A stretch of DNA of 64,000 nt from Naegleria gruberi (lineage: Eukaryota). Shown here piece by piece: positions 1 to 64,000 of the stretch. Location: NCBI GenBank assembly GCA_000004985.1, contig GG738904.1, one strand, 5' to 3'. A program made the position numbers and the translations under genes. Numbering within the stretch: the stretch's first letter is position 1; every line of letters starts with the position of its first letter. Under the pieces are notes generated by a model. The model saw nothing but the letters and a program-made list of their open reading frames with translations. It had not been told where the DNA came from and searched no databases.

Positions 1-205
1 TTCTCTTCCTCCAATATTGGTTGTGTTTTTTCATTATTATTGTCTTTATCCGATATTTGATCCTCTTCTTCTTTTTCCCTTCCTTCATCACAAGCAGCAA
101 CATTCAATGAAGAAGGTATGTCATTTACAGAAGAAGGTATTGTTTCCTCTGTTGCTGTTGTTGTTGTCGTTGCTTGTTGATGGAGTTCCTGATTCTCCTC
201 CGAAG
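1..205 (-). CDS. 5' end of a gene running off the window (partial); acidic/Thr-rich N-terminus
   Basis: The reverse strand has an ATG (complement of 203-205) followed by an open frame to position 1 (MSSEENQELHQQATTTTTATEETIPSSVNDIPSSLNVAACDEGREKEEEDQISDKDNNNEKTQPILEEE...). It is not in the ORF track because it is truncated at the window edge. It is divergent from the gene that starts at 1322. Confidence 0.35.
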
Positions 206-1321
206 ACATGCTGATAATAAATTAAAAAAGATGACGGAAGCAGAAATCAACAAGGCAATTTTTTCTGGTTTACTTTAACGAAGGTTCTCACTTCAAAATC
301 ATTTCTATTTAGTTATGCCAAGTCACAATTTATTTGCTTGTTTGCAATTTTGGATGACATTGCATACAGTTTTATAAAATTGTTTTCAAAGTGTTTGTAA
401 ACTCTTAGTAAATGTTTAAGATAAGTTAAACTAGATTCTTCCAAAAATAAAGTAATCCTAGAAAGTAAAATACTGACATGTTAACAGTTAGAGTTAATTC
501 AATGTTTCAGTATTTCTTTTAGCATTCGTAAAACTTTTCCTATATTAAGCTTGGCAGTAGCCTCAAAAAAGTAGTTTCCATTACAAAAAAGATTGGAAGA
601 TTTTGAACTACAGTACAAGCAAATAGAGGCACGAATCACCTTGAATATTCCATAACTCAAATTGCCACACTTCATAAATAAAGATGGTACAGTAAGGCTA
701 CTTCAAGTGAACCATTAACTATTTTACTAGATCTTACGAAATGGAAGGATGGTTTACTGAATTGTGACATTTCTCAATTCTATTTCACAAAATACAGATG
801 AGAAAGAGGCATTTCAAAATGAAGACTTTTTGAAGAATACTAGAAAATATTTAATTACACAAATTACAAATTCATTATTGTAAAATGATAATATTCATTA
901 TGAATTCATAATGACCAAAGTCTTTCCAACCGTTTATTTTCAGAGTTTGAGGGCCCAAGAGTGGTTGTTGTGAAACATATCAAGCACAATAGGGAAGATA
1001 TTGGCAAGCATCCATCAATCAGTTGTGATCAACGCTGCGACACTTGTCACATTTTCACACTTTAAAAAAAATTTCATTCTGCCACCAGCCCAGGTAATCA
1101 AAAATTAAGAGGGCTACTCAACAAACGATTCGTAACAACAACAAACAGAGGCAACGAATCAAAATTTCACTAATCACTGTTGACACTAATCATCAGCATC
1201 ATTGTAACAATATCAATCGTGTTCTCGTATAGTAAGTAAAGAAGAATACACAATTATTAGAAAGAGGACCAATAACAATAACTATCTGCTAATTCTTCTG
1301 CTTCTTCATTCTCTATAGAAA

Positions 1322-4300
1322 ATGGAACATTTACTCGTGTTGACTACTGTTGAAAGAATTGGTGATTCTCTTCCAAGTACACCTTCATCACAAAGAAGAA
1401 AGGGTTTCAATTTGAAGGGTTATATTAAAACACTCAATGAATTGATTGTTTTGCCAAATATTGACTTACACAAAGTGGTTCAACCTCTCGTTGATCTCTA
1501 CGATAATGTCTCTAAAGTAAGTAGTTTTTCAGAAGGCTGTAGTGGTTTATTAACGCTACATGGTTTTTTTGTTGCAAATTTCATTATCATCATGTTTGGC
1601 GCCACAATTTTGTATCTTCCAATGACACAATTTTTCAACAATAACAACAACAAAACAAAATGATGATCAACTAATAATATCATCATCATGCTGGTTATTA
1701 TGTTGATATTTATCTAACAAAAACAAATTATCATATATAGACCACAATCAATGCTACATTAAAACCTTCTGAGAAAAGAACAAAATTAGAGTTGATCAAC
1801 AAATCAAAACTCATCATTCTCAATCTATTATCGGATTATATAAATTTTGCCATCGAAAATAAGGAAGTAAGTATGAATTATTGTGAGGTTCATCAATATG
1901 AATTTGTTATTATTATTATTAATAATATATTTAATAGCTTGTTTTGCCAAATCATCACTTGAACAATTTGTTCTGTCAATTTGATAATGATGATCTCTTG
2001 TTGGAAGAGAGACGTCAAGAACAAGATGAAGAAGAAGATGAAGATTTAGTTGCACTTGTTAAGGAACAATCAAAGAATGCTCATCAACCATCACAATCAG
2101 CTTCAACAATTACAGAAAGTACAAATGAAGGTAACGAATCTCCAAGTATTAAAAATGGATCTCTCAATCAGATCAGTGATTTCGAATATGGGCATGAAAG
2201 AGGTAGATCACCAAGTGGCTTGGGAGCATCTCTTGATTATTTAAATGCTTACAAGCAAAGAAAACAAAAGAAATCTTCATCAAAATCACAAAGAAACTTT
2301 AATGTAAAGAGAAGTGCTGCCACTTTTACTCAACCAAAAGAATTGGACGAAGCAACAGCTCTCAACATTATTCAATTAGTTTCCACTAGATTATTATTAC
2401 AACATGATATGTTCTATGATGCCACACAAGAAGAAATCCAAAAAACAGCAGTTAATAATTATCTTGAACAACAAATTTCCTATAGATGTATGGAGATACT
2501 ATTCAAAATAAGTGTTTGTAAACCAGATACTGTTTTCAAGACTATTGTTGGTGATTCATTACCTACATCACTTAATAATAACTGTATGGATATCAGTTTT
2601 AATACTGATCTTCAATCTGACAAACTTCCTTTCTCTTCCTCTCTTTCACATTTCAAACTGATCGAATATGTAAATTGGACAGTTGGTAATTTAGAAAAAC
2701 TCTTAAAGGCAGTCAATGAAAACATGAAAGGTTTTACCAAATATTTGGAAGTCTTAACACCTCCTTTAAGATTAGCTATATGGAACTTTATTACAAACTA
2801 TAATAATGAATTTGTTGATATCATTAAGAATCCAAATGCTTCAATTGTTAATACAGCTAGAGAAACATTTGATAATATTTATAAACAAACAGGAAAGAAA
2901 CAAAAAAACAAGACATGGCCAGCACTTGCCACTTTATGCGTTTTGACTGCAGATGATCTTCTAAAGTGTGTAAAGGCAGGTAATGGTAAAAAGTTTGGTG
3001 GCAGTGAAAATATGACAACATTTATTCACAAAGATCTCTTAAAAGCAATGGAAGATAAGGATAAGTCTCTTATTTTACCTCCATTGATTGACATTTATAG
3101 AGCTGTATCATATGCACCATCAGATGTAGAAACAGCCTTTGCTGTTCTTTCTCTTTTGGTGGAAGAAAAATTCCTTTCCATTTTTGTACCAGAACCAACA
3201 ACAGGAAAAGTTTCTAAATGCTATAGTCCAGAAGAGTTGAATGAACTCGAAATGTGGACATTTTATGTAACAACACTTTATAGAAGAAGCCCAGAAAAAT
3301 GCAAAAAACAACTAATGATACCAATAATGGCAGATGGTACTTTAGAGCAAAAACAAACAGTTGCCAAAGTACTTCTTTTCCTTCTTACTGATAGATCTTC
3401 TCAATTTACCTACAATAGAAAGTTAGAAGTAGACTTTAAAGTACTTGCTTCATCTCTTCGTGAATTTTTCATTTCGACTACAGATCAATTCAAAGGTAAA
3501 GCAAGAGAAACTGGTGATGATAATACTCCAACATTAGCACCAAGTGCATCCTTTAGAACACCAAAGAAAGGCTTTGCAGCTCTTTTAAGAGAGAAAGTAG
3601 GTGGTAAGGACAGTAGTAATTCTCCTACTGGATTGGGATCATTCGCAGGTCAACCAAACTTTAAAATGTTTGATACTGTTAACACAATTCTTCACGTTTT
3701 TTGTGCTGATCCAAGGTTTTTCCTTACAAAGTCAAACGAATCCGATCAAAATATCAATAATTTTGCCTATTTGGCTGACTTCTTTGTGCTAAATTCTGAC
3801 CCAATTGTACAAGATCAAATAACTAGACTTTTCCAAAAGCTTTTCTTAGAACAATATATTAAGAACTGGGGAGATGATTTATTTGTTGGATTCAGTACTA
3901 TCTCAACAAGAGTTTTGTCAAGACTATCACCTGCTCTTTTCCTTCTTAATGAATTGGAACAATTGCAAGCAACAAAGACCTTACTTTTCCTTTTGAGAAA
4001 CATTACCTATTGTGCTAAGAAATTCTATATTGCTAACAGAGACACTTATTTACTTTTGGAACACATTAGAACTAACCCTGACAGAATTAATACTCTTGAA
4101 GTTTTATGTAGTAACTTATTGGTATGCCTTTGCTCAACTGATAAGGAGATTTGGCAGTCTACTACAAGATGTTTGAGAGATGTTTGTGACCAAATTGAAA
4201 TTTTGAATAATCACAACATTAAGAAGTTGAATTACAATTTTTACAGACAATTGGCAAGCATTGACTTGAATGGTAAATTTTACAATGAAAGAAAGTCACA

Positions 4301-7300
4301 AATCCAACTTTTCAAGAGAGTTGAAACTCAAACACCATCCATTTTGAAAGCCTTTGGTGAGGTTTATAACAGATGGAAGGAACTTCTTGATCAACTCAAG
4401 AGTGAAGATTCTGCTTCAAATATTACCTTGAGAGATTTGTTCCCTAATTACACCTCTTTGCTATGTGCTCTCGGTGGTGTATGCATTCAAGATACAAAGG
4501 ATGAAGATTCAAGCTTTGTTCTTGATTTCTTAAAGCCAGAGGCAACAAGTGCCAATAATGTTGACAGTTATATGGATGACTTGATGAAACAAGTTATTTC
4601 AGACGATGTCAATGTCAGACAAATGGTAACCATCTCTGTTTCTACTGATTTATCACCAAGTCTTTTCACTAAATTGTTCACTGCCATGAAGGCTTCAGTT
4701 CAAGAACAATTCGGACAAACATTTGTTATTAGTCAAAAGAATAACTTACTTGTTGATCAATATCTTCACATTCTCAAGACAATTGTTGAAAATCCAGATA
4801 CTAATACTGATCTTTCTCTTGCTCAAGAAATTGATTCCATTACTGATCTCTTTGCTAACTATTGTACACACAGCGAATTTGATAACAAGGATGTCCTTGA
4901 GTTGAAGAAGAAATTATGTCAATTCCTTGAAGTTTTGATGAGCAAAGTTGAATACTTGACTTTCAAGAACATTGAAGAACAAAAGTTGAGAAGAACAATC
5001 ATTGGTCACGTTATGGAATGGACAACTGATTCTGTCTTTAAAGAAAAGACATCAACCGGAGCAAGTGTATCAACTCCTCGTGTTGCTTCTGAGGCTCCTC
5101 TTCTAGAAAACAATTCCCAAGTTTCAACTGAAGTCAAGAAACTCTACACCGATCTTGATTTGTTGTGCATGAAGGCATGTACTTCCCTTATCAATGGTAT
5201 GGTTATTGCAAACGATGAAAAAGGAAGAGAAGAATATTCAAAATACTTTGCTTTCTTATTGAGATTCCTTGAAAAGGCTAAAGACAGTACTTTTACAGCT
5301 ACAATTTACAAGGCCTTCTCTAGATTATTGCAAACAAACGTCAGTTTTGGTCTTGAGTATTACATGTCAAAGGTCTACGATAATAATAACACTATTAGAT
5401 CAACATTCTTGGGATTGCTATCTGAATTGATCAAGAAGGGACTTTTGGTTGAAGAAGAAGAAAAAAATAAGCAAGACAGAGTTTCTATTTCTGAATACCA
5501 AGAAATTATCAACAAACTTGTCTTTACCAATAGAAAGAGAGCTCTTTTTGCACTTTTTGATAAGTGCAAGAATCCAGAAAAAGATGATTTGTGTGAAGCT
5601 GTTATTAGAGTTTATCAATCAAAGGGTGAAATTGATAAGAATTTATTAGATTTGTTCCGTCAAAGTGTTACCAGAGAAGTTGCAACCACACCAAAATCAC
5701 AACCTGAAACTCTTTTCAGAGCTAACTCAACCTCTACTAAACTCTTAAAGAAGTACTGTTTGAGAGTCAGTAACCCATACTTGACAACTGTTATTGGTGG
5801 GTTCATCGATACTATGTGTACTAAGCCAACCAAATTTGAAATCGATCCACTGAAGGCTCAACAAAGAGGAGAAAGCGTTGAAGAAAACGTTGAAAATATT
5901 CTTGAAGTATTACAAGAATTTATTGACTGCCTCTGTGATTCAGTCCAACAAACACCTTACACCTTCAGAATGTATTGCAGATATTTGTACGAAGAAGTTG
6001 GTAAGAAATTCACTAAACCAGATGATGACAATGATGAACAATTTGACTTTAAATATATTGCAGTTGGTGGTTTCTTAATTTTGAGATTGATTTGTCCAGC
6101 CATCACTTCTCCACATTTGTATGGTTTGTCAGGAAGTGATATTCCTGCTGACTCTAGACGTTATGCAATCATTCTTACAAAGTTGGTTCAAAACTTGGCA
6201 AACGGTATTGTTGACTCCAAGAAGGAAGAATTCATGAAGAATTTTGTTGATATTATTAGACTTAATCTTAACAAGATTCAAACCTATTTTGAAAAGATTG
6301 CTGCTCCAATAGTTGAAAATGAAGAAGTTTTGAGAATTGAAGAAACAGTCACTGAAGATGAATTGAAGGAAGCATATGAAGTTCTCTATAGATTCTTCTA
6401 TAACTATGCTGATACATTGAGAGAAGAATTAAGTTCACTCTATGATGATATTGAAGATGAGGAAAAGGAAGTATTGGAAGAAGTTGATATCAATGAAAAG
6501 CCATCCTCTAAACAAAACGGTAAATCTCTCAATGATCTCTTAGAAAAGGCTATTGAACAATTTGGTAAACCAGCTGAAGAAGAAAAAACAGGAAGAAGAC
6601 TTTCTGTAAAGCTTAGCAAGGATGATGAGTTCTCCAATCCATTACTTAAGGAATTGCTCAGAAAGAATGAAAAGAAAGATACCTCAAAGATTGCTGAAAT
6701 GAAATTCTTCTCTATCAGTGAACACAAGAATGCTAAGAATCAACGTATAGTTTATTTCATTCCTTACAATTTGGATTTGACTAGATTCTCTCTTGATTTA
6801 TACTTGTACTATGTTCTCAAGAGTATGGAAACCATTTGGAAGGAACCTTATATCATTGTTGTAGATTCTACCTTCTTGACAAAGAAATTTGATATTCGTT
6901 TGTCTGTATTTATTCAACTTTCCAAACACATTCCACAAGGTGCAAAGAAGAATCTTCAAGAAATTTACTTGGTTAACCCAAATACATTCTTCAACAAGAC
7001 CACTAAGAAGCTTGTCTCCATGTTAAGTCATAATCGTTGGAAGGTCATTACTACCAGCTCTTTGCCAGCTGTCACTGACCAAAAATCAAAGACTCCAACC
7101 TCAAAGGATCCATTAGAACTTGTCAAACCTGAACATTCTATGCTTCCATCTCTCACTCAACAATTGTATGAAAAGAGTGAAATAATATATAATACTGAAG
7201 TTGTTCTTGCTTCTCATACAACTGATTGTGAAATTAGACTCTTTGATCAATACATGTTTATTGTTATCAAGGGAGAAAAGTTTATTAATAACAAGGTACC

Positions 7301-10217
7301 AGCAGATTGTTTGGAACATGTCAATGTAACAAAGATTGCCAATATTGCTGTAAAGAAGTCATTGTTTGGTAAATCAAGCAAGGCCACTAAAGATTTTGTT
7401 GTCAAGTATATTGATGATGAAGATGCTGAAGCAGCCTACAACTTTAGAGCTCAAACCATTGAAGAAAGAGACCAAATTATGCAAGGTATTAGAAACTATG
7501 TTGAAAGAAAATCAAGAGGAACAAAGACTGGAAAATCTCTTGAACGTGAATTTAAGAGACTTAAACTTCAAGATGTACCAGGTCAACTCCTTGCTATTTC
7601 ATTCTTCAATCTCGATTCTAAACACACTCCAATTAGAGCTAGTGCTTATTCGTTACTTGCTTCTATCTTTGAACAAGTCAAGATTTCTTCTCATGGTTTG
7701 ATTTTAGAAAGTGATGCTGCTTATGTTCCAAGAAATACTGAAAATACTGTTTTGAGAATTAGTGAATACGTTGCCAGAAATAAGCCTGAACTCACTTTAG
7801 AATTCATTTGTGAAGCTCTCAATGCCTTCAAGACAATCCAAGGAAATAAGTCCAAGTTGAAGTTTGCATCCTTCATCCTCCCATGGCTCGATAACTTGTC
7901 AAGATTTGAAATTTCTACTAGTGTTGATGAAGTTGATGAAAAGACCGAAACAATTAAGAATTGGTTCGAAAACTTTACCAAACTCTGTATTGCCAATGAA
8001 GAAATCTATCCAAAATTACAAAATGTTTGGAAGCACGTCTGTAAACTCTCTTTGCCACTCATTAGAATTGCTATTGAGAGTGTTATCAAACAAGGTACAA
8101 CAAGTGAAATGCTCATGAATGGAGAACAATCTATTATTGGCGATATTTTAGGAACTATTTTGTTGCACTCACCTCTTCAATGGAATGTGGCTCAATTTAT
8201 CATTAACAAGATTGTTGAACCACTCATGACAGAGGAATTGAATATTGACCTTTTGAACAAAGCAACAGTTAAAGAGTTGGTGAAATCAAAAGATATTCTA
8301 GGCAAGATTCCAGTTTACATGTCTTATCTCCTTATGTTGTCTTTTAATAGTCAAATCAATTTGTTAGAGAATTTGCCATACGTACTCTTTATTATTTCTC
8401 TCTTCTTGGGTGTTGGTTCAGATACCTACTTGAGATCAATTGTTTATGGTATTTGTTGTAACTGTGTTCACTCCCTTGTTTTGGAATTGCCAGCATGTGA
8501 ACAATTTGAGCATGTAAGAGCCAAATTGCAAAAGCTTCATTTGAGAGTTCTTGAAAAGGACATCAAGTCAAGTTTCATGGGTGGTGAACATGAACCACAA
8601 CCTTTTGCCTCATACTCTGATTTTGTCAATAAGGTTTCACAAGGAAAGGTAACATTCGATGAAACTACCATGTACAAGTATGAAGATATCATGAGATACT
8701 TTAAGGAAATCATTGAATGCTTTGACTTTAGTTACGATAGCCTTATTCAAGCTAGGGGTAAGACTTTGAAATCTCAATTTGGTTCTACCATTATAACCTC
8801 ATCCAAGGCAACTCATAGTGTTATTGAAGAATCATCTGAAAATTCCAAGGATATGGATGAAGATGGTACAGAAAATGATATGACAGAAGGAGAAGTTGAT
8901 GATGAGCATAACGGTTCTAATCCAAGCACTAGCACCTCAGATATCGTTAAATCTGGCAGTGATACCATCAAGAGTGTTTGGTTGAAGATCTTTACCAACT
9001 TATGTAAGGATACCATGAAGACAGCCAATCTCTTATTGTTCCCTAAATCTTTAATCTCATTCAGTATTATTTCCACCTCAGAACAATCATATGATATGAT
9101 TCCATTTGTTCTTAACTTTATTGGTAAGCGTGGTGTTGAAACTCTCTCCGAAAATGAGCTAATGTTGTCTGTTCTATTGTCAATTAACCAATTCTGTATT
9201 AATATGGTTGTTGAAAAGGATAGAATTGAAACTTTGAGAAAGATTATTATCTTTGGATTCTTCTTGTTGACCATTGCCAACACAAAGATTTATTCTGCTG
9301 TAACCAAGTTGCTCAGTACAGTTTTTGCCATTCTTTTTGAAGCTAGAGATATTCATGACGGTTTCTTGTCTATTGGTGATTACTTTAATCAAGTTTTCAG
9401 ATCTGACTACTCCAAGTACCTATCCATCACTAAAGAATTTGAAGAAACTGTTGGACTTTCATTTGGCCAACACTTCTCATTCACCGTTTCTCTTCTTCTC
9501 ATGAAGGGACTTGCTATTGATGACTCCACCATTAGAAAGGCAACTATTTCTCTCCTCAAACAAATCCTCTCTATCAGTTACAAACTCAAGTTTGAACCAC
9601 AAAACCAACTAGGCTTTATTGCTGCTTTAATTCCATTCGATAAGCAGTACAACTCTGTATTATATAGTGAACAACTCTATTCTGAAAGCATGTTCACTAA
9701 GGAAACTGTTTTCCTCTTCCAAAAGTACCTCTTTAGCATTACTGCATCCAACATTGATCTTGATAGCTGTGCTTCTGTTTATAGATCACTTGCAAGAGGT
9801 TTTGAAGCCATTCCTGATACTTTTGCAGATGTTTTCCAAGATCACCACAGTATGTCTCAAGTCATTAAGGTATACACCTCCTCTCAAGATGATACTATCA
9901 TTGAACATAGTTTGAATCTTTTCAAGATTATGAGTAATAATGCCAAATCAAAGAAACTTCAAGTTAAGGAACCATTTGCTGATTATGGATTCAAAGGTTT
10001 CCGTGATCAAACTACATTCCAAACCACTAAGGATGACTTGAAGAAGAAATGTCAAAAGACTTTGATTACATTCTTAACTGAAAACTTTAATGAACAAGAA
10101 TATCCATCCATGGATTCTGTAATTATTTCCAAGACTGGTATGAAGAAATCATTCCTTAAAGCCGCCTCTTCAAGTCCAGTTGTAAGACAAGCATCAGGAA
10201 CAAACTTTAAGAAATAA
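1322..10217 (+). CDS. nfaA: Neurofibromin (NF1-type RasGAP) orthologue with a Sec14/CRAL-TRIO domain; three exons: 1322-1516, 1741-1866, 1938-10217 (about 2866 aa)
   Basis: The RasGAP signature YIAVGGFLILRLICPAITSP...KLVQNLANG is colinear with the human NF1 GRD (FEIDP, FLRxxxPAIxSP, KxxQxxAN). A Sec14-like segment (IVYFIPYNLDL...YIIVVDSTFL...EIYLVNPNTFF) follows. The two 5' introns have GTAAGT donors (1517, 1867) and AG acceptors (1740, 1937), and all junctions are phase 0. The long exon is one uninterrupted 2757-codon ORF. Confidence 0.85.
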
Positions 10218-10345
10218 AATTTTTATCATAATTCTTTGAATTCAAGAACAATATTTTTGCAATGTTATACATATCTCCTTACTAAATATTGATATATTAT
10301 CTTAAGCACAAATATTATTCATTAGAATATTATTTATTTAAAAAA

Positions 10346-10992
10346 ATGTCAAAACCAACTTTGAATATTTGCCTGTTGGGAAATGTTGATTGTGGAAAAT
10401 CAACACTGACAGGAAAATTATTAGAAGTTATCGGAGGTGATTCTTCCTATTCTGAAAAGATTAAAAAATCAACTAGTAAGAATTTTGTCGAGTCAAAAAA
10501 TCATTTCTTGAATTTAATGGATGTTTGGGGTATGTGGAATTAATTGTGATTAAAATTGAAAAGTATTGATTTAAAGTGGATCAATACCTCCTGCTGGAAG
10601 TAGCAAAGGTATTTGAGGAAGATTCGAACAAGGGTATTAGAAATATAGTGATAATTGTATTGGATGCCTCGTCAGGTGGATATGAGGCCGGCCTTAGTCA
10701 ACTAAAACATCTCTTGCTATTTTTGAAAACTCTGGAAGGTATTATGCATAACAAACAATTTATATTTTGTGTGAATAAGATGGATCACTCAAGTGTTAAT
10801 TATTCTGAATTGAGATTTAAAGAAATTGTCAATGAAGTATCTAGAATGGTCACTCGGCTTGGATTCTCACAACCACCACCACAATTCATTCCAATATCCT
10901 CACTGAAATGCGAAAATATTTTAGAAAATTGTGAAAACATGAGTTGGAATGCAAGTCAACCTTCACTACTGGATGTTATAAACTCATTGTAG
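10346..10992 (+). pseudogene. EF1-alpha/Hbs1-family translational GTPase-like G domain, degenerate (switch I/II motifs missing, domains II/III absent); either a two-exon gene (10346-10529 + 10577-10992 with a 47-nt intron) or a decayed pseudogene
   Basis: MSKPTLNICLLGNVDCGKSTLTG matches the G1/P-loop GHVDSGKST. IVIIVLDASSGGYEAGLSQ...FIFCVNKMD matches EF1A VLIVAAGVGEFEAG...VGVNKMD (G4 NKxD). IPISSLKCENI matches IPISGWNGDNM. No GITI/Thr (G2) or DAPGH (G3) is present. The ORF ends at the end of the G domain. Read in the exon-1 frame, the 47-nt gtatgt...aag segment resembles the missing switch-I region weakly (W..LK....I....WK) and includes in-frame TAA/TGA codons. Confidence 0.45.
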
Positions 10993-11196
10993 CAAAAATC
11001 TTTCATGTTCCTGCCAGGAATTGAACCCCGGACTTTCTAAAATGGTCCGTTGTAAAATTCTACAGTTTTCAAAATAAATCAAGAGTATACATTTTTCGCA
11101 AAGTTTAATCTCTTGATAGTTAGTAATCTGAAAGGGAATCTTCACCTATTTATCTCTCAGTTTTCATAAAGAAAAATATATAAAACAAAATGATAA

Positions 11197-11953
11197 TCAG
11201 CTGAGGATAGATTTGATCTTTTCAATGACATTTTTTCTATTGCCACATCAACTGTTGAAAATATTGATTCCTCTTTAATGTTTGAAATGCTTCTTGCTTT
11301 GAAGAATGATGACACTAGTATTTTGTGGGAAAATATGTATCAATCCATTCTCAAACTTCATCAATTGTTGGCCGCCGAAAGTGTTTCAAACTCATTCTCT
11401 AGAATGGTAAAAGATTTGGTTAAAAACAAGTATGAATCAATTGGATGGACCAATGTACCAGGAGCAGATGAAGATGAGGAAAATCTTGATGAATTACGTC
11501 CATCTCAATTTGGCCTGTCGTTTTGGTCTCACTGAATGTGTCACTGAAGCCTTTAAACGTTATCAAGAAAGAAACTCAACCATTATTCCTCCAATTCTTC
11601 GTAATGCTGTTTATAGAGCTGTTGTTTCTAATGGTGGAGAACGTGAATATTATCAAATTTTGAATCAATTCAAAGCTGAGCAAGATTCTGTGGAAAGAAC
11701 CAAGTTAGTGTATGCAAGATTCCACTCTTGCAAACGACCTTGGATTTGGCCCTTTCTCCACCATGTTAAGCCACAAGATAGTATCTTCCTTATTAGAGAA
11801 GTTGCAAGAAATGTACCAAGTGGACCAAACGTTGCTTTTGTCAGAACTAGATATGATGCCATTCTCTCAAAATGTGGACAAGATCAAGTCAGTAATAGAT
11901 TATCATATGGGGTTGGTTCTCTATTCACTAATATCTTTGAAAGGGATGAATAG
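11197..11953 (+). pseudogene. 3'-terminal fragment (about 250 codons) of an M1-family aminopeptidase (puromycin-sensitive aminopeptidase-like C-terminal ERAP1_C region), with an internal frameshift near 11490
   Basis: Frame 1 (AEDRFDLFNDIFSIATSTVENIDSSLMFEMLLALKNDD...ESIGWTNVPGADEDEENLDEL) then frame 2 (HLNLACRFGLTECVTEAFKRYQ...ILRNAVYRAVVSNGGEREYYQILNQFKAEQDSVERTKLVYA...HVKPQDSIFLIREVARN...) are colinear with the C-terminus of metazoan PSA (DRLGLQNDLFSLARAGIISTVE...LRSPVYLTVLKHGDG...EVRPQDTVSVIGGVAGG). Homology begins abruptly after in-frame TGA/TAA codons at about 11190. There is no room upstream for the roughly 650-aa catalytic (HEXXH) domain on this strand. Confidence 0.6.
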
Positions 11954-11989
11954 ATTCAATATTTTGCTCCAAATATTGAAAAATTGAGC

Positions 11990-12568
11990 ATGAAGCATTA
12001 TTATATTAGTGGAATGAAACAATTAACATTACTTAATATTGGGAACAATCAAATTGGTGTAGAAGGATCCAAATTCATACATGAAATGAAACAATTAACA
12101 TCACTTGATATATATTATAATGAAATTGGTGTAGAGGGATCCAAATTCATAAGTGATATGAAACAATTAACATCACTTAATATTAATTACAATCGAATTG
12201 GTGATGAAGGAGCCAAATTTATAAGTGAAATGAAACAATTAACATCACTTGATATTTATAACAATGAAATTGGTGTTGAAGGAGTCAAATCAATAAGTGA
12301 AATGAAACAATTAACATCACTTAATATCAGTGGAAATCAAAGTGGTGCCGAAGGAGTCAAATTAATAAGTGAAATGAAACAATTAACATCACTTAGTATT
12401 AATTACAATCGAATTGGTGATGAAGGAGTCAAATTAATAAGTAAAATGAAACAATTAGCATCACTTGATATTAGTGGAAATGGAATTGGTGATGAGGGAG
12501 CCAAATTAATAAGTGAAATGAAACAATTAAAATCGCTTAGTATTCATAACCAACAGATGTTTAAGTAA
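11990..12568 (+). CDS. Leucine-rich-repeat protein made only of about 8 tandem 24-aa RNI-like repeats (MKQLTSLDIxxNxIGxEGxKxISE); possibly a 3' exon or an orphan array
   Basis: The ORF-track protein is a near-perfect array of 24-aa repeats, which equals 72-bp tandem DNA repeats. The frame opens only 3 codons before the ATG (at 11981), immediately after the aminopeptidase fragment. No F-box or other N-terminal domain is found upstream. Confidence 0.45.
   Translation: MKHYYISGMKQLTLLNIGNNQIGVEGSKFIHEMKQLTSLDIYYNEIGVEGSKFISDMKQLTSLNINYNRIGDEGAKFISEMKQLTSLDIYNNEIGVEGVKSISEMKQLTSLNISGNQSGAEGVKLISEMKQLTSLSINYNRIGDEGVKLISKMKQLASLDISGNGIGDEGAKLISEMKQLKSLSIHNQQMFK
12000..12560. repeat. Tandem 72-bp coding repeats (LRR units); the same repeat family recurs at 29680-29990
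   Basis: An identical 33-mer, agtgaaatgaaacaattaacatcacttgatatt, occurs at about 12231 and about 29755. The period is 72 bp. Confidence 0.8.
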
Positions 12569-12673
12569 AATCCAAAAAAAAGGATTTGGCCAGACTCTGC
12601 CTCACACTCATTATAATAACTGTTAAGATTCTACTCTTTTTTTTTACTTAATGTATCTAAATCTCTGCCCATT

Positions 12674-14334
12674 CTATCCTAAGGTGTGAACTCCTTGTTG
12701 CGAATTAAATGGTGCTTCGGTTGATGTTGTTGGGTTATCATCTTGTGCAATAGGTGTGGTGGCTGTTGATTCAGTTGCATAATTTGTAGTTGCATTGGAT
12801 TGTGAACTGCTTGTGGCACTACTATCAACAGGTGTTGTAATGTTAGTGTTAGCAGCAGGTTGTGTCATGGTATTGATTATCCTTGGTTTGACATCTTCCA
12901 AAAGGGTTGGAATAGATTGAGAAAGTTCCTTCTCTGTTAACTCCCACAACTTTGGAAGAAAGTCTGAATACTTCAATATTATTCATTACAAGTATCATAT
13001 TCTTCAACAATTCTGGAAGAGCCTCCCTCAAATGATCACTCTTTGGTTTGACGAGTAAAAAGTTGTACATAACTTGAAGAATGGTGAGCCACAATGAAGA
13101 GAAACCATTATCTTGTTGACTTTCAGTATTATTCACAGGTAACATTCTTGGTAAAAAGTGCAGGAATATTCTAGCAAGTAAGTTGTTGGCTCTGACCCTA
13201 AGCTCTTCTAAAGAGGAAATATCCATTTCTGTATTGTGATTGGTTTGATATTCAGTTGTCTTTGGTTTGAGTGTGAGAAGAGTTTGGAAAAATGTCTTGA
13301 GCAATACACGATCCATACACATCATTAAGAGTTGATCATTGAGGAGATATTTTAGATTTTGTGAGTCTTCTTGGTTGGCAGTGAATGAATATCTGAAATC
13401 ACAACTATAAACAAGAGATCTTTGTAAGGTTGAAAGTGCTTGGGTTCTAATATCTCTTTGGAGGTGGCTCAACATTTGAATTTGACTATTATTCAATTGT
13501 GACATTAGTAAGTTCAGAACATTGACCGGTCCACTAGTGTTAATGCCACCAGTGCAACACAATACTGCTATACCTTCAAGAATTGAAAGCCAAGCATTGA
13601 TCCACTTGTTATCCAATTTGATGACGTTTTGGGATGAGTTAGCAGATGAATAGGCAATGGATACAATTCTCTTCAAAATTTCCATAACCAAATTTTCCAA
13701 AATGATTAAAATGTCCATTGTGAGAGCCATAAGCTTTTTAAGGGTGGATACAAATTGTTGGGAGCTATTGCTTCCATTGGAGGTGTTTTGAATATTTACA
13801 TTTGTTGTAATGGAAGAACTCAAAACGGACAAGATACTTTGGACAATGTTGGGAAATTATCAGGAACAACAAACCATAACCCGAAATGAGTAGTATCATC
13901 CTGTAATGTAGAGTATTGAAAACTGAGAGTAAGTACATCTAATGATCTGGTAATTAATTGTAATGGTTGTGAAGGTTTGATGGATGTGAAGAGTGAGCTA
14001 TTAGGATTATTATTTATCCATGAGGAGGAAACGTTGGAAATACTTCTCAAAATCTTGAAAACTAAATGATCCCACAAATCTACAATAAGTCTTGATGAGC
14101 TATCAGTAAATATTGTGGAAGGATTAAGATTGGTAGCATTTGTACGATCTTGAATTTGGTAGCCATTGGTGAGAGTAGAGTTTCACCTTGTCTCGACAAG
14201 AACATGTGAATCATAGGAAGTAAACTATTATGGAAAACACCCAACATGGTTTCACTCCATTGCTTACCAAGGTTATCAATAAGGACAGAGCATTTCTTTT
14301 TGACCAATCTCCCATTCTGCTTGATTTTCAACAC
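12674..14334 (-). pseudogene. GBF1-like (Golgi brefeldin-A-resistance factor / Sec7-family ARF-GEF) C-terminal HDS region only; split across at least 4 reading frames; no Sec7 domain or N-terminus present
   Basis: The 327-aa ORF contains WLSILEGIAVLCCTGG...DIRTQALSTLQRSL...LRVRANNLLARIFLHFLPRMLP...SSLWLTILQVMYNFLLVKPKSDHLREALPELLKNMILVMNNIEVF. This is colinear with the human GBF1 C-terminus ([71 protein letters not shown]). The next GBF1 block, LWEITWERIDCFLPHLRDELF, appears as LWELTEKELSQSIPTLLEDV in a different frame (ORF 12674-12976). Upstream pieces (13820-14077, 14080-14334, possibly 14617-14823) are in further frames. A reverse-strand GTAAGT at 14463-14468 does not give a frame-consistent splice. 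The upstream 3+ kb needed for DCB/HUS/Sec7 is occupied by a plus-strand gene. Confidence 0.5.
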
Positions 14335-20930: not shown

Positions 20931-22751
20931 ATGAGAGAAGGAGAAAGTCAATACGGTGATATCTTGTCTGTTTCAGGACCAGTCGTCGTTGCTGAAAAGA
21001 TGGAAGGTGCTGCCATGTACGAACTTGTTCGTGTTGGTAATCAACAACTTGTGGGTGAAATTATTCGTTTGGAAGGTGATACTGCCACAATCCAAGTCTA
21101 CGAAGAAACATCAGGTTTGACTGTTGGTGATCCAGTATTGAGAACTGGACAACCATTGTCTGTTCACTTGGGTCCAGGTATCATGGGTAGTATTTTCGAC
21201 GGTATCCAACGTCCTTTGGAAGTCATTTATAAAAACTGCAATGAAGATATTTACATTCCTAGAGGTATTAACGTAAATTCATTGGATATGGATAAGAACT
21301 GGTTTTTCAACCCAACAAACTTCTCTATTGGTGATAAAATCACTGGAGGTGACATTTTCGGTGAAGTTGAAGAAAATGACTTTATTAATCACAAAATCCT
21401 CCTTCCACCAGGTGCTATGGGTGAAATTACTTATATTGCTAGCCCAGGTAACTATACTCTTAACGATGCTGTCATTGAAGTTGATTTCAATGGTATGAAG
21501 AGACAATTCGGTATGGCCCACTTCTGGCCTGTACGTCAACCTCGTCCAGTTATTGAAAAGTTAGCTGGTGATTATCCAATTTTGACTGGTCAACGTGTTT
21601 TGGATGCTGTCTTCCCTTCTGTCCAAGGTGGTACTTGTGCTATTCCAGGTGCCTTTGGTTGTGGTAAGACTGTCATTTCCCAAGCTATTTCTAAATATTC
21701 TAACTCTGAAGCTATTATCTACGTTGGTTGTGGTGAACGTGGTAACGAAATGGCTGAAGTATTGATGGAATTCCCTCACCTTACTGTTACTAATCAAAAG
21801 ACTGGTAAGGAAGTTTCTATCATGAACAGAACTTGTCTTGTTGCTAACACTTCAAACATGCCTGTTGCTGCCAGAGAAGCTTCTATTTATACTGGTATTA
21901 CATTGTCCGAATATTTCAGAGATATGGGTATGAACGTTGCTATGATGGCTGACTCTACTTCTCGTTGGGCTGAAGCTTTGAGAGAAATTTCTGGTCGTCT
22001 TGCTGAAATGCCTGCTGACTCTGGTTATCCAGCTTATTTGGGTGCTCGTTTGGCTTCTTTCTATGAACGTGCTGGTAAGGTTCGTTGTATTGGTAATCCA
22101 GGTCGTACTGGTTCAATTACTATTGTCGGTGCTGTTTCTCCACCTGGTGGTGACTTTGCCGATCCAGTTACTGCTTCAACTTTGGGTATTGTCCAAGTCT
22201 TTTGGGGTTTGGATAAGAAATTGGCTCAAAGAAAGCACTTCCCTTCAGTCAACTGGCTCATTTCCTACTCTAAATACATTAACTCTTTGGAACCTTTCTA
22301 TGAAAAGGTCGATCCTGAATTCGTTCGTTTGCGTACAATCATGAGAGAAATTCTCCAACAAGAAGAAGATTTGACAGAAATTGTCCAATTGGTCGGTAAG
22401 GACTCACTCCCAGAAAACGATAAGGTTACATTGGAAGTTGCTAAATTATTGAGAGAAGATTTCTTGCAACAAAACTCATTCACTGATTATGACAAGTATT
22501 GTCCATTCTTTAAGACTATTCTCATGTTGCGTAACTTTATTAAATTCTATGAAGATTCTCAAAAGGCTGTTCAAGAATCAGGTGCCAAGATTACATGGAA
22601 CACAATTAAGAATGCCATGACTGATTTGACTTACAAGTTGTCAAGCCAAAAGTTTATCAAGCCATCCCTTGGTGAAGCTGGTGTTAAACAACAACTTAAC
22701 GACCTTTATCAAGAAATTTCAAATGCTTTCAAGAATCTTGAAGAAGAGTAA
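20931..22751 (+). CDS. vatA: V-type proton ATPase catalytic subunit A (606 aa, single exon)
   Basis: Walker [13 protein letters not shown]. Strong family-wide identity (e.g. [62 protein letters not shown]). Codon usage is that of a highly expressed gene. Confidence 0.95.
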
Positions 22752-39793: not shown

Positions 39794-40034
39794 TTTTTTT
39801 AAATTTTTAAAGCTGTATTTTTACGCGCCCTCAATAACAGTTACAGATGTTTGCTGTTTATTGTTCGTTTTTTTTAATTGTCAGCTGAAGAACAGTGAAT
39901 GGAAATTTACAGCCCTTTTCTTTGCTGTCATCTATGAGTGGTCAATTTTTGAATCTAGTAAAATGATTCAAAAGAATTCTTTAGATATAAAAGTATTGAG
40001 CATTTAAAAGAGATACTAGCAGTAGTAGTTTTTA

Positions 40035-42032
40035 CTAATTTTTGTAATGTTGTTGCATTTGTTTTTGTAATTTCAATTTGTGAGCATTTTGTAAAACATC
40101 TCCTTTATCCACAGTCATTGATTTTGATTGAAAATATGGTTGATTCATTGTTTGTTTACAATAATCTTCTGGATTAAAATCAAATACACAACTTCCAACT
40201 GTTAAATGATGAATTTCATCATGTTCATAATTATTTGGAATGGACAAATAAATAACCTTTTCATAGGGACATACTTTCTTAACTAATCCAATACATTTCA
40301 ATTGAGTTTTTAATTCTTGATTTGTTTTAATGGTCATGAGTGGATATTCACTTGATTGATTGGAAATTAACTTGTTATGATATTCATTTGTAATTATTCC
40401 ATTATTATTTTTAGGAGGTTTAAATGAATAAACTCCAACAAATGATCCATTTAAATAATATAATCCTTTTGATAATTCACTTGAATCTGTATTTAGTAAT
40501 GTAATTATTACTTGATTCCATTTTAATTTAATTGTAGGAAGTTCTGCAAAGAATTCATAAATACTTTTAGAATTTCCCATTGTTGTTGCAATTGTTGTTG
40601 TTGAGTTATTATTACTACTACTATTACTACTATTACTAATATTACTATTTTTAGAAATATTGAATGCAATTGTTTGCTGTAATGATTTTGTAAAAACCAA
40701 ATCAAAAATTCTTTTAAATTCCTCAATTTCATAACAATATGAAAAATAAAACAAGTGTTGTAAATTAATTTTAGAAAAATAATGATTTCTATAACCTTGT
40801 TTCGATCCAATAATAAATAAAGTTTCTAAATTTCTCAAATCAACAATTGAAGTATTTTCACCTGTAATTTCCCTATTATTAATATTATTAAAGAATATAG
40901 TATTATTTTTAATATTATTGTAATCTATTAATCCAGAAGGTGATGGATTCAAATTAATATTTTTATAATTACTTAATACTATTAAATCTGTCATACCATT
41001 TTTGGTATTTTGATTTAAAATTTGAAGTAATTCCAAAATAATTTGATATCCACTTGAAGGTAATAAAGATTGACTATTAATAATTAATGGAATATTTGAA
41101 TATTTTTTACAATAAATTTGATATAATTCAAGTGATTGTTTTAAATAAGTTTCAATTTGAATATCAGTTGTTGAATGACCATGATATATTTGGTAAATTA
41201 ATTCATTTTTAGTATTTTGAAAAAGTGGTCCAAATGTTGGATTTGAATGAATTGAAAGTGATAATGTACCTCTAATTCCAAATGTAGGAACATTAATATT
41301 TAAATTTAAAAATGCTACTTTTGGATAATAATTTAATAATTCATTCATTAAATAATTACTAAATAAGGATTTACCTGATAAGGCATGTCCACATATTACA
41401 TATTTTCTTAATTCTTTTCTTGTACATCTATTTATAACTCTTTTCATAAAATCATTTGCAAAATCAAATTTAATTAAATGTGTTGGAATATTAGAATTTC
41501 CATAAATGTAAAGTGATTCAAGTTTACGTTTTGATTTTTCTAATTTTAAATTATTAAATATTTGTAAATTTTTATGTAAATAATAACATCTTGTATATAA
41601 ATCATATTCTTCACTTTCCTTATTTGGTATATAAAATTTAATTAAACTTTCTTGATTTGTATTTTCAATTGCAATCATTCCATACATGCAATTACTATTT
41701 AATAAATAACTATTTGATGAATTTTTAATATTCTTTCCCAATATTTTAATACTTCCTTGTAAAACTTGAAAATAACAAACTCCAATTAAGTAAATTGTTG
41801 AATTTAAATTCTTTAATTTAATTTCAATAGAATTTTTCATTTCCGAATTTAAAGATGATTCTTTTTCATCATCATTCATTTCATCAATATCTTCTTCTTG
41901 TTGATTCATTAATTCATTTGCATCATCATTATCTTCTTCTTGTTGATCATCGGAATTTTCTTGATTAATTTCCTCTTCATTGATTTCATCATCGGAATCA
42001 ACAATTTCTTCATTTTCTTTAAATTGTTTCAT
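40035..42032 (-). CDS. Grc3/Nol9-like polynucleotide 5'-kinase (Clp1 family) with an acidic N-terminal extension
   Basis: The P-loop is VICGHALSGKSLFSNYLMNELL. The overall layout (acidic N-terminus, central kinase, C-terminal domain) and the size (665 aa) fit Grc3/NOL9 rather than Clp1. Confidence 0.55.
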   Translation of the reverse strand: MKQFKENEEIVDSDDEINEEEINQENSDDQQEEDNDDANELMNQQEEDIDEMNDDEKESSLNSEMKNSIEIKLKNLNSTIYLIGVCYFQVLQGSIKILGKNIKNSSNSYLLNSNCMYGMIAIENTNQESLIKFYIPNKESEEYDLYTRCYYLHKNLQIFNNLKLEKSKRKLESLYIYGNSNIPTHLIKFDFANDFMKRVINRCTRKELRKYVICGHALSGKSLFSNYLMNELLNYYPKVAFLNLNINVPTFGIRGTLSLSIHSNPTFGPLFQNTKNELIYQIYHGHSTTDIQIETYLKQSLELYQIYCKKYSNIPLIINSQSLLPSSGYQIILELLQILNQNTKNGMTDLIVLSNYKNINLNPSPSGLIDYNNIKNNTIFFNNINNREITGENTSIVDLRNLETLFIIGSKQGYRNHYFSKINLQHLFYFSYCYEIEEFKRIFDLVFTKSLQQTIAFNISKNSNISNSSNSSSNNNSTTTIATTMGNSKSIYEFFAELPTIKLKWNQVIITLLNTDSSELSKGLYYLNGSFVGVYSFKPPKNNNGIITNEYHNKLISNQSSEYPLMTIKTNQELKTQLKCIGLVKKVCPYEKVIYLSIPNNYEHDEIHHLTVGSCVFDFNPEDYCKQTMNQPYFQSKSMTVDKGDVLQNAHKLKLQKQMQQHYKN

Positions 42033-50462: not shown

Positions 50463-50535
50463 TGCCGACACCAGGGATCGAACCAGGGACCTTAAGATCT
50501 TCAGTCTTACGCTCTCCCAACTGAGCTATGTCGGC
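50463..50535 (-). tRNA. tRNA-Phe (anticodon GAA), 73 nt, no intron, CCA not encoded
   Basis: The reverse complement reads GCCGACATAGCTCAGTTGGGAGAGCGTAAGACTGAAGATCTTAAGGTCCCTGGTTCGATCCCTGGTGTCGGCA. It has a canonical cloverleaf with A/B boxes (TAGCTCAGTTGG, GGTTCGATCC), and the GAA anticodon sits in CTGAAGA. It is near-identical to the animal tRNA-Phe-GAA. Confidence 0.92.
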
Positions 50536-53794: not shown

Positions 53795-53915
53795 TCTCTT
53801 GTGTTGTCATTTTTTTTAAAGTAAATTTGATAAAAATATTTACTTGAAATTGTTCCCGCCAAAATCAACTACAATTTTTGCGCCAAAGGCTAAATTAAAA
53901 ATCCTCATAAAAAAA

Positions 53916-63870: not shown

Positions 63871-64000
63871 TTATTATTATATTATATTTATATTATATAT
63901 ATTAATAAGAGTATTATTATTACATTGTGTGCATATGAATGGATGTTTAAATTTGTTATAAAATGATGGAATAATTAAAAGTTTATTTTATCATTTTGTT

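What the first reader, a model, noticed from the sequence alone, without database searches (positions are those of the whole stretch)
10346..10992. G-domain-only EF1-alpha paralogue lacking both switch motifs
The P-loop (GNVDCGKST), NKMD and the C-terminal G-domain elements are well conserved relative to EF1A/Hbs1. The segment carrying the G2 threonine (RGITI) and G3 DAPGH is absent, and domains II/III are missing. Two readings are possible. One is a 2-exon gene with a 47-nt GTATGT...AAG intron, which would encode a likely GTPase-dead pseudo-GTPase of about 200 aa. The other is a decayed pseudogene. The 'intron' read in the exon-1 frame aligns weakly with the missing switch-I region (W..LK....I....WK) and contains TAA/TGA codons.
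Basis: seen in the sequence. Interest (0 to 1): 0.5.

Follow-up and report, generated by a model that had tools for sequence, protein, structure and literature searches.

The report
Truncated EF1A-like G-domain gene, Naegleria
This is an unannotated two-exon reading frame in the amoeba Naegleria gruberi that encodes only the nucleotide-binding domain of a divergent translation-elongation-factor copy; it is one more, truncated, member of a gene family already known to be expanded in this species, and whether it is still a working gene or a very young relic cannot be settled without expression data.

Summary
The window is Naegleria gruberi NEG-M. The described sequence is there at the stated coordinates: ATG at 10346, exon 1 to 10529, a 47-nt GT..AG phase-1 intron (10530-10576), and exon 2 to the TAG at 10990-10992. 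The spliced product is 199 aa and matches EF1A G domains.

Its nearest relatives are three full-length, divergent N. gruberi eEF1A-like paralogues: NAEGRDRAFT_60891, NAEGRDRAFT_60950 and XP_002672389. All three already lack the Gly-His of G3. Two of them have an intron at exactly the same codon and phase, so the intron is inherited. It is not a decayed switch-I segment.

Relative to these paralogues the locus:
- lacks 31 codons inside exon 1 (switch I with the G2 threonine);
- has about 7 extra residues in the switch-II helix;
- stops at a TAG replacing a conserved Lys codon at the end of the G domain.

G1, G4 and G5 are intact, and G3 is degenerate (DVWV) rather than absent. No domain II/III remnant exists in the window.

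The frame is open despite saturated synonymous divergence, so it was under selection until now or very recently. It is unannotated, has no detected orthologue, and sits beside a frameshifted aminopeptidase relic. My verdict is a truncated member of a known expanded family, of modest interest.

The parts
10346..10529 (+). Exon 1 (61 codons plus 1 nt). It encodes the homologous start (MSKPTLN vs MIEKPTLN in the paralogues), beta1, the P-loop, helix 1, a shortened linker, beta2/beta3 and the first three residues of G3.
   Evidence: tblastn with the paralogues matches 10346-10519.
10379..10405 (+). G1 / P-loop GNVDCGKST (residues 12-20), with the GxxxxGKS/T pattern intact.
10439..10483 (+). 15-residue linker DSSYSEKIKKSTSKN. 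It stands where the paralogues have about 45 residues (switch-I helices, the G2 'GR[TS]I' and the start of beta2). This is the site of the net in-frame deficit of 31 codons.
   Evidence: Exon 1 is 184 nt against 277 nt in L003.
10520..10578 (+). Degenerate G3 DVWV (residues 59-62). The Val codon is G(10529)+TG(10577-78) across the intron. The paralogues read DAPV or DAPA. The canonical motif is DAPGH.
10530..10576 (+). 47-nt phase-1 spliceosomal intron, GTATGT...TATTGATTTAAAG. Read through, it has three stop codons.
   Evidence: The position and phase match the annotated 43-nt intron of XP_002672389 (L003 738-780) and the acceptor in L002. Removing it restores a colinear alignment.
10577..10992 (+). 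Exon 2: a lengthened switch-II helix, the rest of the G domain and the stop codon.
   Evidence: tblastn matches 10642-10989, E 3e-23 to P0163.
10774..10785 (+). G4 NKMD (residues 128-131), inside the clade signature FIFCVNKMD.
10897..10905 (+). G5 SSL (residues 169-171). It corresponds to SAW/SAL in the paralogues and SG[WF] in canonical eEF1A.
10990..10992 (+). Stop codon TAG at the codon homologous to the conserved Lys (AAG/AAA) that ends the G domain in the paralogues ('LLDAINSLK'). Homology ends here.

Best explanation
The locus is an unannotated, structurally intact two-exon gene of Naegleria gruberi. It is a truncated offshoot of that species' divergent eEF1A-like paralogue group.

Shown:
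- It has the same start, the same intron position and phase, and the same clade-specific indel and motifs as the full-length paralogues 60891, 60950 and XP_002672389.
- All of these lack the Gly and the catalytic His of G3.
- This copy has also lost 31 codons covering switch I and G2.
- It has gained about 7 residues in the switch-II helix.
- It ends at a TAG that replaces the Lys codon at the G-domain boundary, and no domain II/III DNA is left.

Inferred:
- The frame has been kept open by purifying selection up to the present or nearly so.
- If translated, the product is a 199-aa stand-alone G domain that can still bind guanine nucleotide through intact G1 (GKST), G4 (NKMD) and G5 (SSL).
- It cannot carry out ribosome-triggered GTP hydrolysis, switch conformation in the canonical way, or bind aminoacyl-tRNA. 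That makes it a pseudo-GTPase module.
- From my own knowledge, its properties should resemble the engineered isolated G domain of EF-Tu and trypsin-nicked EF-Tu lacking the effector loop, both of which fold and bind GDP.
- Its cellular role, for example binding or titrating partners of the divergent eEF1A-like proteins, is speculation.
For: - Organism: exact look-ups of nine neighbouring proteins identify N. gruberi.
- Homology: Pfam and PDB matches to EF1A.
- Nearest relative: the closest single-domain hit in an exhaustive HMMER search is the N. gruberi 60891 cluster, and no hit falls below 1e-30.
- Colinearity: BLASTP to 60891 gives 3e-37 and runs colinear through the splice junction.
- Shared derived characters: no Gly/His in G3, the 3-residue deletion in 'ISKNGQTREH', LIFCVNKM, VLDA and the N-terminal KPTL.
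- Conserved intron.
- Open frame: 199 codons are open while the other frames of the same DNA carry 2-12 stops.
- Indels: all indels relative to the paralogues are in frame.
- Selection pattern: codon-position identity runs 2>1>3. dN is 0.48-0.53 against saturated dS of at least 1.75.
- Neutral decay: a simulation breaks the frame with 95% probability after only 0.10 substitutions per site.
- Rate: amino-acid distance to canonical EF1A is 0.65, no larger than that of the annotated paralogue 60950 at 0.66.
- Conserved sites: 67% of family-invariant residues are retained, against about 40% overall identity.
Against: - No gene model exists here in the public N. gruberi proteome, although the flanking 173-aa relic ORF was called.
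- No orthologue or close relative appears in 1.8 billion cluster representatives, JGI metagenomes or IMG/VR.
- No expression data could be consulted.
- The architecture (no domains II/III, no switch I) is what a partial, disabled copy would look like.
- Retention of family-invariant residues is lower than in the full-length paralogues (67% vs 77-89%).
- The codon-usage score is at or below the low end of neighbouring genes (0.08-0.22 vs 0.16-0.57).
- The immediate downstream neighbour is a frameshifted ERAP1_C fragment, so this interval does hold gene debris.
Confidence: 0.55

Rival explanations
1. Very young gene relic. A member of the divergent eEF1A-like family was disabled recently and is now decaying without being expressed. 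The disabling events would be the nonsense change at the Lys codon, loss of the domain II/III DNA and the 31-codon deletion. The open frame simply reflects the short time since death.
For: - The truncated architecture, with the TAG one substitution away from the AAG/AAA Lys codon of the paralogues.
- The locus is unannotated and has no detected orthologues.
- An adjacent ERAP1_C fragment carries a 1-nt frameshift and lacks its catalytic domains.
- The family is a large birth-and-death expansion, with 12-13 eEF1A-class proteins in N. gruberi (PMC4342817).
- Conservation at invariant sites is weaker and codon usage is poorer than in neighbouring genes.
Against: - No stop, frameshift or splice-site lesion exists within the 199 codons.
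- Neutral time is bounded to about 0.1 substitutions per site or less, against dS of at least 1.75 to the nearest paralogue. Death would have to fall in the last few percent of the lineage's history.
- Downstream domain II/III sequence has vanished completely while the upstream frame stayed perfect. This fits selection on the truncated frame somewhat better, although a single deletion could also explain it.
Confidence: 0.35
2. The G-domain exons are the 5' part of a larger spliced gene that continues into the downstream ERAP1_C-like and/or LRR reading frames (11197-12568, same strand).
For: - All three ORFs lie on the + strand with short gaps.
- On paper, a GT at 10976 and an AG ending at 11205 would join the frames in phase 0. 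This is read directly from the sequence and is not supported by any data.
Against: - Homology to the paralogues runs to the very last codon before the TAG.
- The required donor (GTTATA) and acceptor are weak.
- The ERAP1_C frame is itself broken by a frameshift near 11500.
- The public annotation treats 11432-11953 as a separate 173-aa model.
Confidence: 0.05
3. One reading: a decayed pseudogene in which the 47 nt between the two ORFs is the rotted remnant of switch-I coding sequence.
For: The 47 nt contain stop codons in the exon-1 frame.
Against: - Two paralogues have a genuine intron at the identical codon and phase. One of these is used in the annotated 429-aa model.
- Switch I lies upstream of this point in the paralogues' exon 1.
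- The 47 nt start with GTATGT, end with AG, and contain a YTRAY-type TTGAT near the 3' end.
Confidence: 0.02
4. Foreign origin: a short EF1A-like gene acquired from a giant virus or another organism. The only word-index hit was an AT-rich 320-aa metagenomic EF1A-like protein.
For: P0001 is 31% identical over 97% of the query.
Against: - N. gruberi paralogues are closer (41-43%) and share the intron position and clade-specific indels.
- P0001 keeps RGIT and DVPGH.
- There is no relative in IMG/VR.
- Composition is like the rest of the window.
Confidence: 0.03

Closest known systems
Divergent eEF1A-like paralogues of Naegleria gruberi: NAEGRDRAFT_60891 (XP_002671928, 432 aa), NAEGRDRAFT_60950 (XP_002670889, 445 aa) and XP_002672389 ('elongation factor 1 alpha', 429 aa). 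They are part of the species-specific trGTPase expansion noted by Atkinson 2015 (PMC4342817).
   Same: - 41-43% identity over the G domain.
- Same start.
- Same phase-1 intron in the G3 codon.
- G3 without Gly and His (DAPV / DAPA / DVWV).
- Same 3-residue deletion after 'EAG'.
- LIFCVNKM[DE] and VLDA signatures.

   Different: - Those proteins keep switch I (GR[TS]I) and domains II and III and are annotated.
- This copy lacks 31 codons of switch I and has about 7 extra residues in the switch-II helix.
- It stops at the end of the G domain and is unannotated.
Canonical eEF1A / archaeal aEF1A (PDB 1jny, 1f60, 4c0s)
   Same: - G-domain homology: E 7e-19 to 1e-14, with G1, G4 and G5 conserved.
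- The best NCBIfam family is EF-1 alpha.
   Different: - 34-35% identity.
- No G2, no DxxGH, no domains II/III.
- It scores 74-80 bits against family cut-offs of 502-540.
Ski7 and other eEF1A-family members with impaired GTPase centres; pseudo-GTPases in general (from my own knowledge, not tested here)
   Same: An EF1A-type G domain that keeps nucleotide-binding motifs but lacks the catalytic His.
   Different: - Ski7, Hbs1 and eRF3 keep domains II/III and have N-terminal extensions.
- PDB matches to Hbs1 and eRF3 are weaker than to EF1A.
- No orthology is implied.
Engineered isolated G domain of EF-Tu, and trypsin-nicked EF-Tu lacking the effector loop (classical biochemistry, from my own knowledge)
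   Same: Same parts list: a G domain alone, or a G domain without switch I. These constructs fold and bind GDP/GTP but are uncoupled from tRNA and the ribosome.
   Different: Those are laboratory constructs with an intact DxxGH. This is a natural locus with a degenerate G3, and its protein has not been observed.
Divergent EF-1alpha genes that co-occur with EFL in some eukaryotes (Kamikawa et al. 2013, PMC3699394)
   Same: Extra, fast-evolving EF1A copies with presumed remodelled function.
   Different: Those are full-length three-domain proteins. The paper was only seen in a search listing, not read.

Membership tests
EF-Tu/EF1A translational GTPase (Pfam GTP_EFTU G domain) | Significant match to the G-domain profile above the curated cut-off | tested here: met
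   PF00009 at 53.6 bits against a cut-off of 26.5, E 2.7e-14, in two stretches. PDB EF1A chains match at up to 6.8e-19.
EF-Tu/EF1A translational GTPase | G1 GxxxxGK[ST], G4 NKxD and G5 S[AG]x present | tested here: met
   GNVDCGKST, NKMD and SSL align with the family motifs.
EF-Tu/EF1A translational GTPase | G2 threonine in switch I (RGITI) | tested here: not met
   There is a 31-codon deficit in exon 1 covering the switch-I helices and 'GR[TS]I'. A Thr/Ser in the linker KKSTSKN cannot be equated with G2.
EF-Tu/EF1A translational GTPase | G3 DxxG followed by the catalytic His | tested here: not met
   The motif is DVWV, with Asp kept and Gly and His absent. The closest paralogues also lack them (DAPV, DAPA).
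EF-Tu/EF1A translational GTPase | [quoted passage not shown] | tested here: not met
   The product ends at the G-domain boundary. tblastn with three paralogues finds no domain II/III match in 64 kb. Pfam finds D2, D3 and the eEF1A C-terminal domain in P0163 and P0090, but the scan of this product listed none of them.
N. gruberi divergent eEF1A-like clade (60891 / 60950 / XP_002672389) | Closest relatives, shared derived indel and motifs, and a shared intron position and phase | tested here: met
N. gruberi divergent eEF1A-like clade | Full three-domain architecture of about 430-445 aa | tested here: not met
   199 aa, G domain only.
Processed (retro-copied) pseudogene | No introns, and a poly(A) remnant | tested here: not met
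   The parental intron is retained at the homologous position. No A-run follows the stop.
Duplicated (unprocessed) pseudogene | Disabling lesions such as premature stops, frameshifts or lost splice sites | tested here: inconclusive
   There are no frameshifts, internal stops or splice-site loss in the 199 codons. The terminal TAG at a conserved Lys codon and the loss of two domains could be counted as disabling.
Expressed protein-coding gene | Transcript with the 10529/10577 junction; detectable protein | not testable with these tools
   No RNA-seq or EST resource was available. The spliced product is absent from the 15-billion-protein collection, but no Logan source is listed for any of the nine N. 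gruberi neighbours looked up either, so its absence is uninformative.
Pseudo-GTPase (nucleotide-binding, catalytically dead G domain) | Folded G domain that binds but does not hydrolyse GTP | not testable with these tools
   This is inferred from the motifs only.

The most novel reading that the evidence does not exclude
The locus is a translated gene kept by selection. It would be a natural stand-alone eEF1A-derived G domain that has shed switch I, the catalytic His and both tRNA-binding domains. It would work as a guanine-nucleotide-binding pseudo-GTPase outside translation elongation, within a Naegleria-specific radiation of catalytically degenerate eEF1A-like proteins.
Probability: 0.4. 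Interest if true: 0.45.

Novelty: new variant of a known kind. Interest (0 to 1): 0.3.

Why it matters
If it is expressed, it would be a natural example of an elongation-factor G domain surviving alone. That would show how a core translation GTPase family can spin off minimal, hydrolysis-dead nucleotide-binding modules. It would also add to the poorly understood expansion of divergent eEF1A and eEF2 copies in Naegleria.

If it is a relic, it only documents birth-and-death turnover in that family and a small gap in the N. gruberi annotation.

Either way, the practical yield is modest:
- a corrected anatomy, in which the intron is real, G3 is degenerate rather than absent, and the deletion lies inside exon 1;
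- the identification of the parent clade, whose full-length members themselves lack the catalytic His and deserve study more than this fragment does.

Tried and rejected
- **Word-index homology search with the spliced product.** It returned only a 31%-identical metagenomic protein, P0001. It missed the true paralogues, which the exhaustive HMMER search then found.
- **Top two HMMER hits.** P0013 and P0014 score high only because they are tandem double-EF1A proteins, so I set them aside.
- **Handing in the spliced 199-aa product.** ORF2 alone was used for the search, and no structure was obtained.
- **Fetching the N. gruberi scaffold annotation through neighbouring proteins.** This failed. Only short ENA contigs of a 98.8%-identical strain were available, and none covers this locus.
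- **Scans of JGI metagenome contigs and IMG/VR for close relatives.** Nothing was found.
- **Inferring general N. gruberi intron rules from adjacent ORF pairs in the window.** The result was too ambiguous, and the literature look-ups gave no intron statistics. The paralogue introns were used instead.
- **A tRNA-like T-arm just after the stop (11007-11033, minus strand).** ARAGORN and Rfam do not call it. It is single-copy in the window and has no unusual fold.
- **Flanking repeats suggesting a mobile element.** Only a 17-nt near-repeat turned up, probably by chance.
- **An 'NLKG' resemblance to domain II, 45 codons past the stop.** It is not colinear and tblastn does not report it, so I treated it as chance.
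- **dN/dS against the paralogues.** It cannot decide present-day function because dS is saturated.

Full report
**Source and setting**

Nine single-exon ORFs of the window are exact matches to Naegleria gruberi NEG-M proteins on one 297,120-bp scaffold. One example is V-ATPase subunit A, XP_002671597, at 20931-22751. The window is AT-rich (about 31% G+C) and gene-dense.

The finding lies 128 nt downstream of a 2757-codon neurofibromin-like ORF with RasGAP and CRAL_TRIO_2 domains, which ends at 10217. About 200 nt downstream of the finding is an ERAP1_C-like fragment (11197-11953), followed by an LRR ORF (11984-12568), all on the + strand.

**The observation**

The sequence is as described:
- ATG at 10346;
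- a 184-nt first exon;
- a 47-nt GTATGT...TTTAAAG interval (10530-10576) that carries three stops when read through;
- a 416-nt second exon ending in TAG at 10990-10992.

Splicing joins G(10529) to TG(10577-78) and gives a 199-aa product. The two coding frames have no stops, while the five other frames of the same DNA have 2-12. From base composition, a 138-codon open frame has a chance probability of about 1e-5.

The product matches Pfam GTP_EFTU (53.6 bits, cut-off 26.5). It also matches solved EF1A structures, best to archaeal EF1A at 6.8e-19, then eukaryotic eEF1A, with eRF3 and Hbs1 weaker. NCBIfam likewise ranks EF-1 alpha first but far below its cut-off. The basic observation, an EF1A-type G domain and nothing else, is therefore confirmed.

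**Closest relatives**

The spliced product, ORF1 and ORF2 are not in the 15-billion-protein collection. An exhaustive HMMER scan of 1.84 billion cluster representatives with ORF2 gave no hit below 1e-30. No public gene model therefore covers this locus, and no close orthologue is on record.

The two top hits of that scan are tandem double-EF1A proteins that score twice. The best single-domain hit (45% identity over 116 residues) belongs to the cluster of N. gruberi NAEGRDRAFT_60891, XP_002671928, 432 aa.

A search with that protein found two more N. gruberi paralogues:
- NAEGRDRAFT_60950 (XP_002670889, 445 aa);
- XP_002672389 (429 aa, named 'elongation factor 1 alpha').

All three sit on other scaffolds and all have domains II and III. 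Over the G domain the three are 55-60% identical to each other. They are 41-43% identical to the window product and 34-45% identical to canonical EF1A. The window product is 34-35% identical to canonical EF1A.

The four share derived characters:
- no Gly and no His in G3 (DAPV, DAPA, DAPA, DVWV, against the canonical DAPGH);
- a three-residue deletion after 'FEAGI';
- the LIFCVNKM[DE] and VLDA motifs;
- an N-terminal EKPTL/SKPTL.

Atkinson (2015) already recorded that N. gruberi has 'several versions of eEF1A and eEF2', often highly divergent. That paper's Additional file 2 lists twelve eEF1A-class and one aEF1A-class protein for the species (PMC4342817). The locus is thus an unannotated extra member of a known expansion.

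**The intron**

DNA for two paralogues came from short ENA contigs of a strain 98.8% identical to the window.

In L003, exon 1 ends '...GAT GCT CCA G'. It is followed by a 43-nt GTAATT...GAAAG interval, and exon 2 starts 'CT GCT CCG TTT'. The spliced translation is 429 aa. It gives the same 'IIDAPAAPF' junction as the annotated XP_002672389 and differs from that model at four residues elsewhere.

L002 begins inside an intron that ends '...ATAAATAG' before 'TT GGA TCT TTT', which encodes V-G-S-F of 60891.

In both paralogues the intron sits after the first base of the codon that follows D-x-x. This is the same codon and the same phase as in the window. Removing the 47 nt gives an alignment to 60891 that is colinear through the junction.

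The intron is therefore inherited and its splice signals are intact.

**What is actually missing**

The paralogue alignment shows that 'ESKNHFLNLMDVW|V' corresponds to 'ETKHYYLNIIDAPV', that is, beta3 plus G3. G3 is therefore present but degenerate.

The real deficit is inside exon 1. That exon is 184 nt against 277 nt in L003, exactly 31 codons shorter. Fifteen residues (DSSYSEKIKKSTSKN) stand in for about 45 residues that hold the two switch-I helices, the G2 'GR[TS]I' and the start of beta2.

Exon 2 carries a net insertion of about 7 residues in the switch-II helix.

The stop TAG occupies the codon of the conserved Lys in 'LLDAINSLK' (AAG in L003, AAA in L002). That Lys closes the G domain, and similarity ends at that codon. 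tblastn with all three paralogues finds no trace of domains II/III in the 205 nt before the next feature or anywhere else in the window.

**Gene or pseudogene**

For a live, or only just dead, gene:
- Synonymous divergence from the nearest paralogues is saturated (NG86 dS 1.75 or undefined) with dN of 0.48-0.53. Identity by codon position runs 2>1>3.
- Every indel relative to the paralogues is in frame.
- The start codon, splice sites, G1, G4 and G5 are intact.
- In a simulation of neutral substitution on this CDS, the frame is broken with 50% probability after 0.02 substitutions per site and with 95% probability after 0.10, before counting indels. At most a few percent of this lineage's independent history can have been neutral.
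- Its amino-acid distance to canonical EF1A (0.65) equals that of the annotated paralogue 60950 (0.66).
- It keeps 29 of 43 residues (67%) that are invariant in five reference sequences, well above its overall identity of about 40%.

Against:
- That 67% retention is lower than the 77-89% of the full-length paralogues.
- Codon usage is at or below the bottom of the range of neighbouring genes.
- No model was called here, although the adjacent 173-aa ORF was (NAEGRDRAFT_73400).
- No orthologue is detectable.
- The neighbouring ERAP1_C domain is split between two frames by a one-base shift near 11500 and lacks the peptidase domains, so gene debris does exist at this spot.
- A caveat I could not remove is that the rest of the N. 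gruberi genome could not be searched at the DNA level. A closer, unannotated or lost parent copy cannot be excluded.

I put about 0.55 on a gene maintained by selection and about 0.35 on a very young relic. The remainder goes to a larger spliced gene, a foreign origin or the rejected decayed-intron reading.

**Likely mechanism if translated**

This part is inference from motifs and from established knowledge of EF-Tu and EF1A, not a test.
- Lys18 and Ser19 of the P-loop, NKMD and SSL should allow guanine-nucleotide binding.
- Without the G2 Thr, the G3 Gly and the catalytic His, the canonical Mg/gamma-phosphate sensing, the switch-II flip and ribosome-activated hydrolysis cannot operate.
- Without domains II/III there is no aminoacyl-tRNA pocket.
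- From my own knowledge, isolated EF-Tu G domain and trypsin-nicked EF-Tu lacking the effector loop are stable and bind GDP. The architecture is therefore physically plausible.
- Structure prediction of the spliced product could not be run.

**Comparison and novelty**

The locus works like, and derives from, eEF1A. However, it fails three defining features of a translational GTPase: G2, G3 with the catalytic His, and the adjacent beta-barrel domain.

It belongs by descent to the N. gruberi divergent eEF1A-like clade but not to its three-domain architecture. It is not a processed pseudogene, because the intron is retained.

I rate it a new variant of a known kind, with modest interest. The parent clade of His-less full-length eEF1A-like proteins is arguably the more interesting subject.

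Noticed in passing
window 11197-11953 (+): An ERAP1_C (M1 aminopeptidase C-terminal) domain is split over two frames by a 1-nt shift near 11500 ('CGT C CAT CTC'). Frame A covers profile positions 34-129 and frame B covers 134-288. No peptidase N-terminal or catalytic domain lies upstream. The second frame is annotated as a 173-aa protein, NAEGRDRAFT_73400 / XP_002671594. Only two word-sharing candidates exist in the protein collection, so this too is an orphan, divergent fragment.
   Followed up: partly
window 11933-12622 (+): An LRR ORF (11984-12568, LRR_6-type) is built from seven tandem 72-nt (24-aa) units that are 66-84% identical. The ATG-started version is not in the protein collection, so it may also be unannotated.
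   Followed up: partly
window 11007-11033 (-): Just after the stop codon is a G+C-rich stretch, GTCCGGGGTTCAATTCCTGGCAGGAAC, that resembles a tRNA T-arm plus the 3' acceptor strand. ARAGORN and Rfam do not call it. It is single-copy in the window and its fold is not unusual (z = -0.76). It may be a tRNA-derived remnant.
   Followed up: partly
L002, L003 and proteins P0163, P0090, P0297 (other N. gruberi scaffolds): Three full-length, annotated N. gruberi eEF1A-like proteins lack the G3 glycine and the catalytic histidine (DAPV/DAPA). One also has NKME instead of NKMD and a GQANSGKT P-loop. All score far below the EF-1 alpha equivalog cut-off (224-361 vs 540 bits). Pairwise dN/dS between two of them is about 0.27-0.37. 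This looks like a clade of hydrolysis-impaired eEF1A-like proteins of unknown role.
   Followed up: partly
L001-L003 (ENA assembly ERZ929261, run ERR1078381, labelled 'metagenome'): This public 'metagenome' assembly contains genomic contigs 98.8% identical to N. gruberi NEG-M, with a few amino-acid differences per protein. It is apparently a second N. gruberi-group strain and could be used for polymorphism analysis.
   Followed up: no
window 10311-10327 and 12975-12991: A 17-nt direct near-repeat (AATATTATTCATTA[G/C]AA) brackets the block that holds the EF1A-like ORF, the ERAP1_C fragment and the LRR ORF. It is probably chance in AT-rich DNA.
   Followed up: no
window 1944-10217 (+): A single uninterrupted 2757-codon ORF carries RasGAP and divergent CRAL/TRIO domains (neurofibromin-like). 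Its true start lies upstream of, or at, an undetermined ATG.
   Followed up: no
window 40001-42000, 52001-54000, 62001-64000; tRNA at 50463-50535 (-): Three 2-kb bins have markedly lower G+C (0.19-0.22 against about 0.31). A tRNA-Phe(GAA) gene lies at 50463-50535.
   Followed up: no
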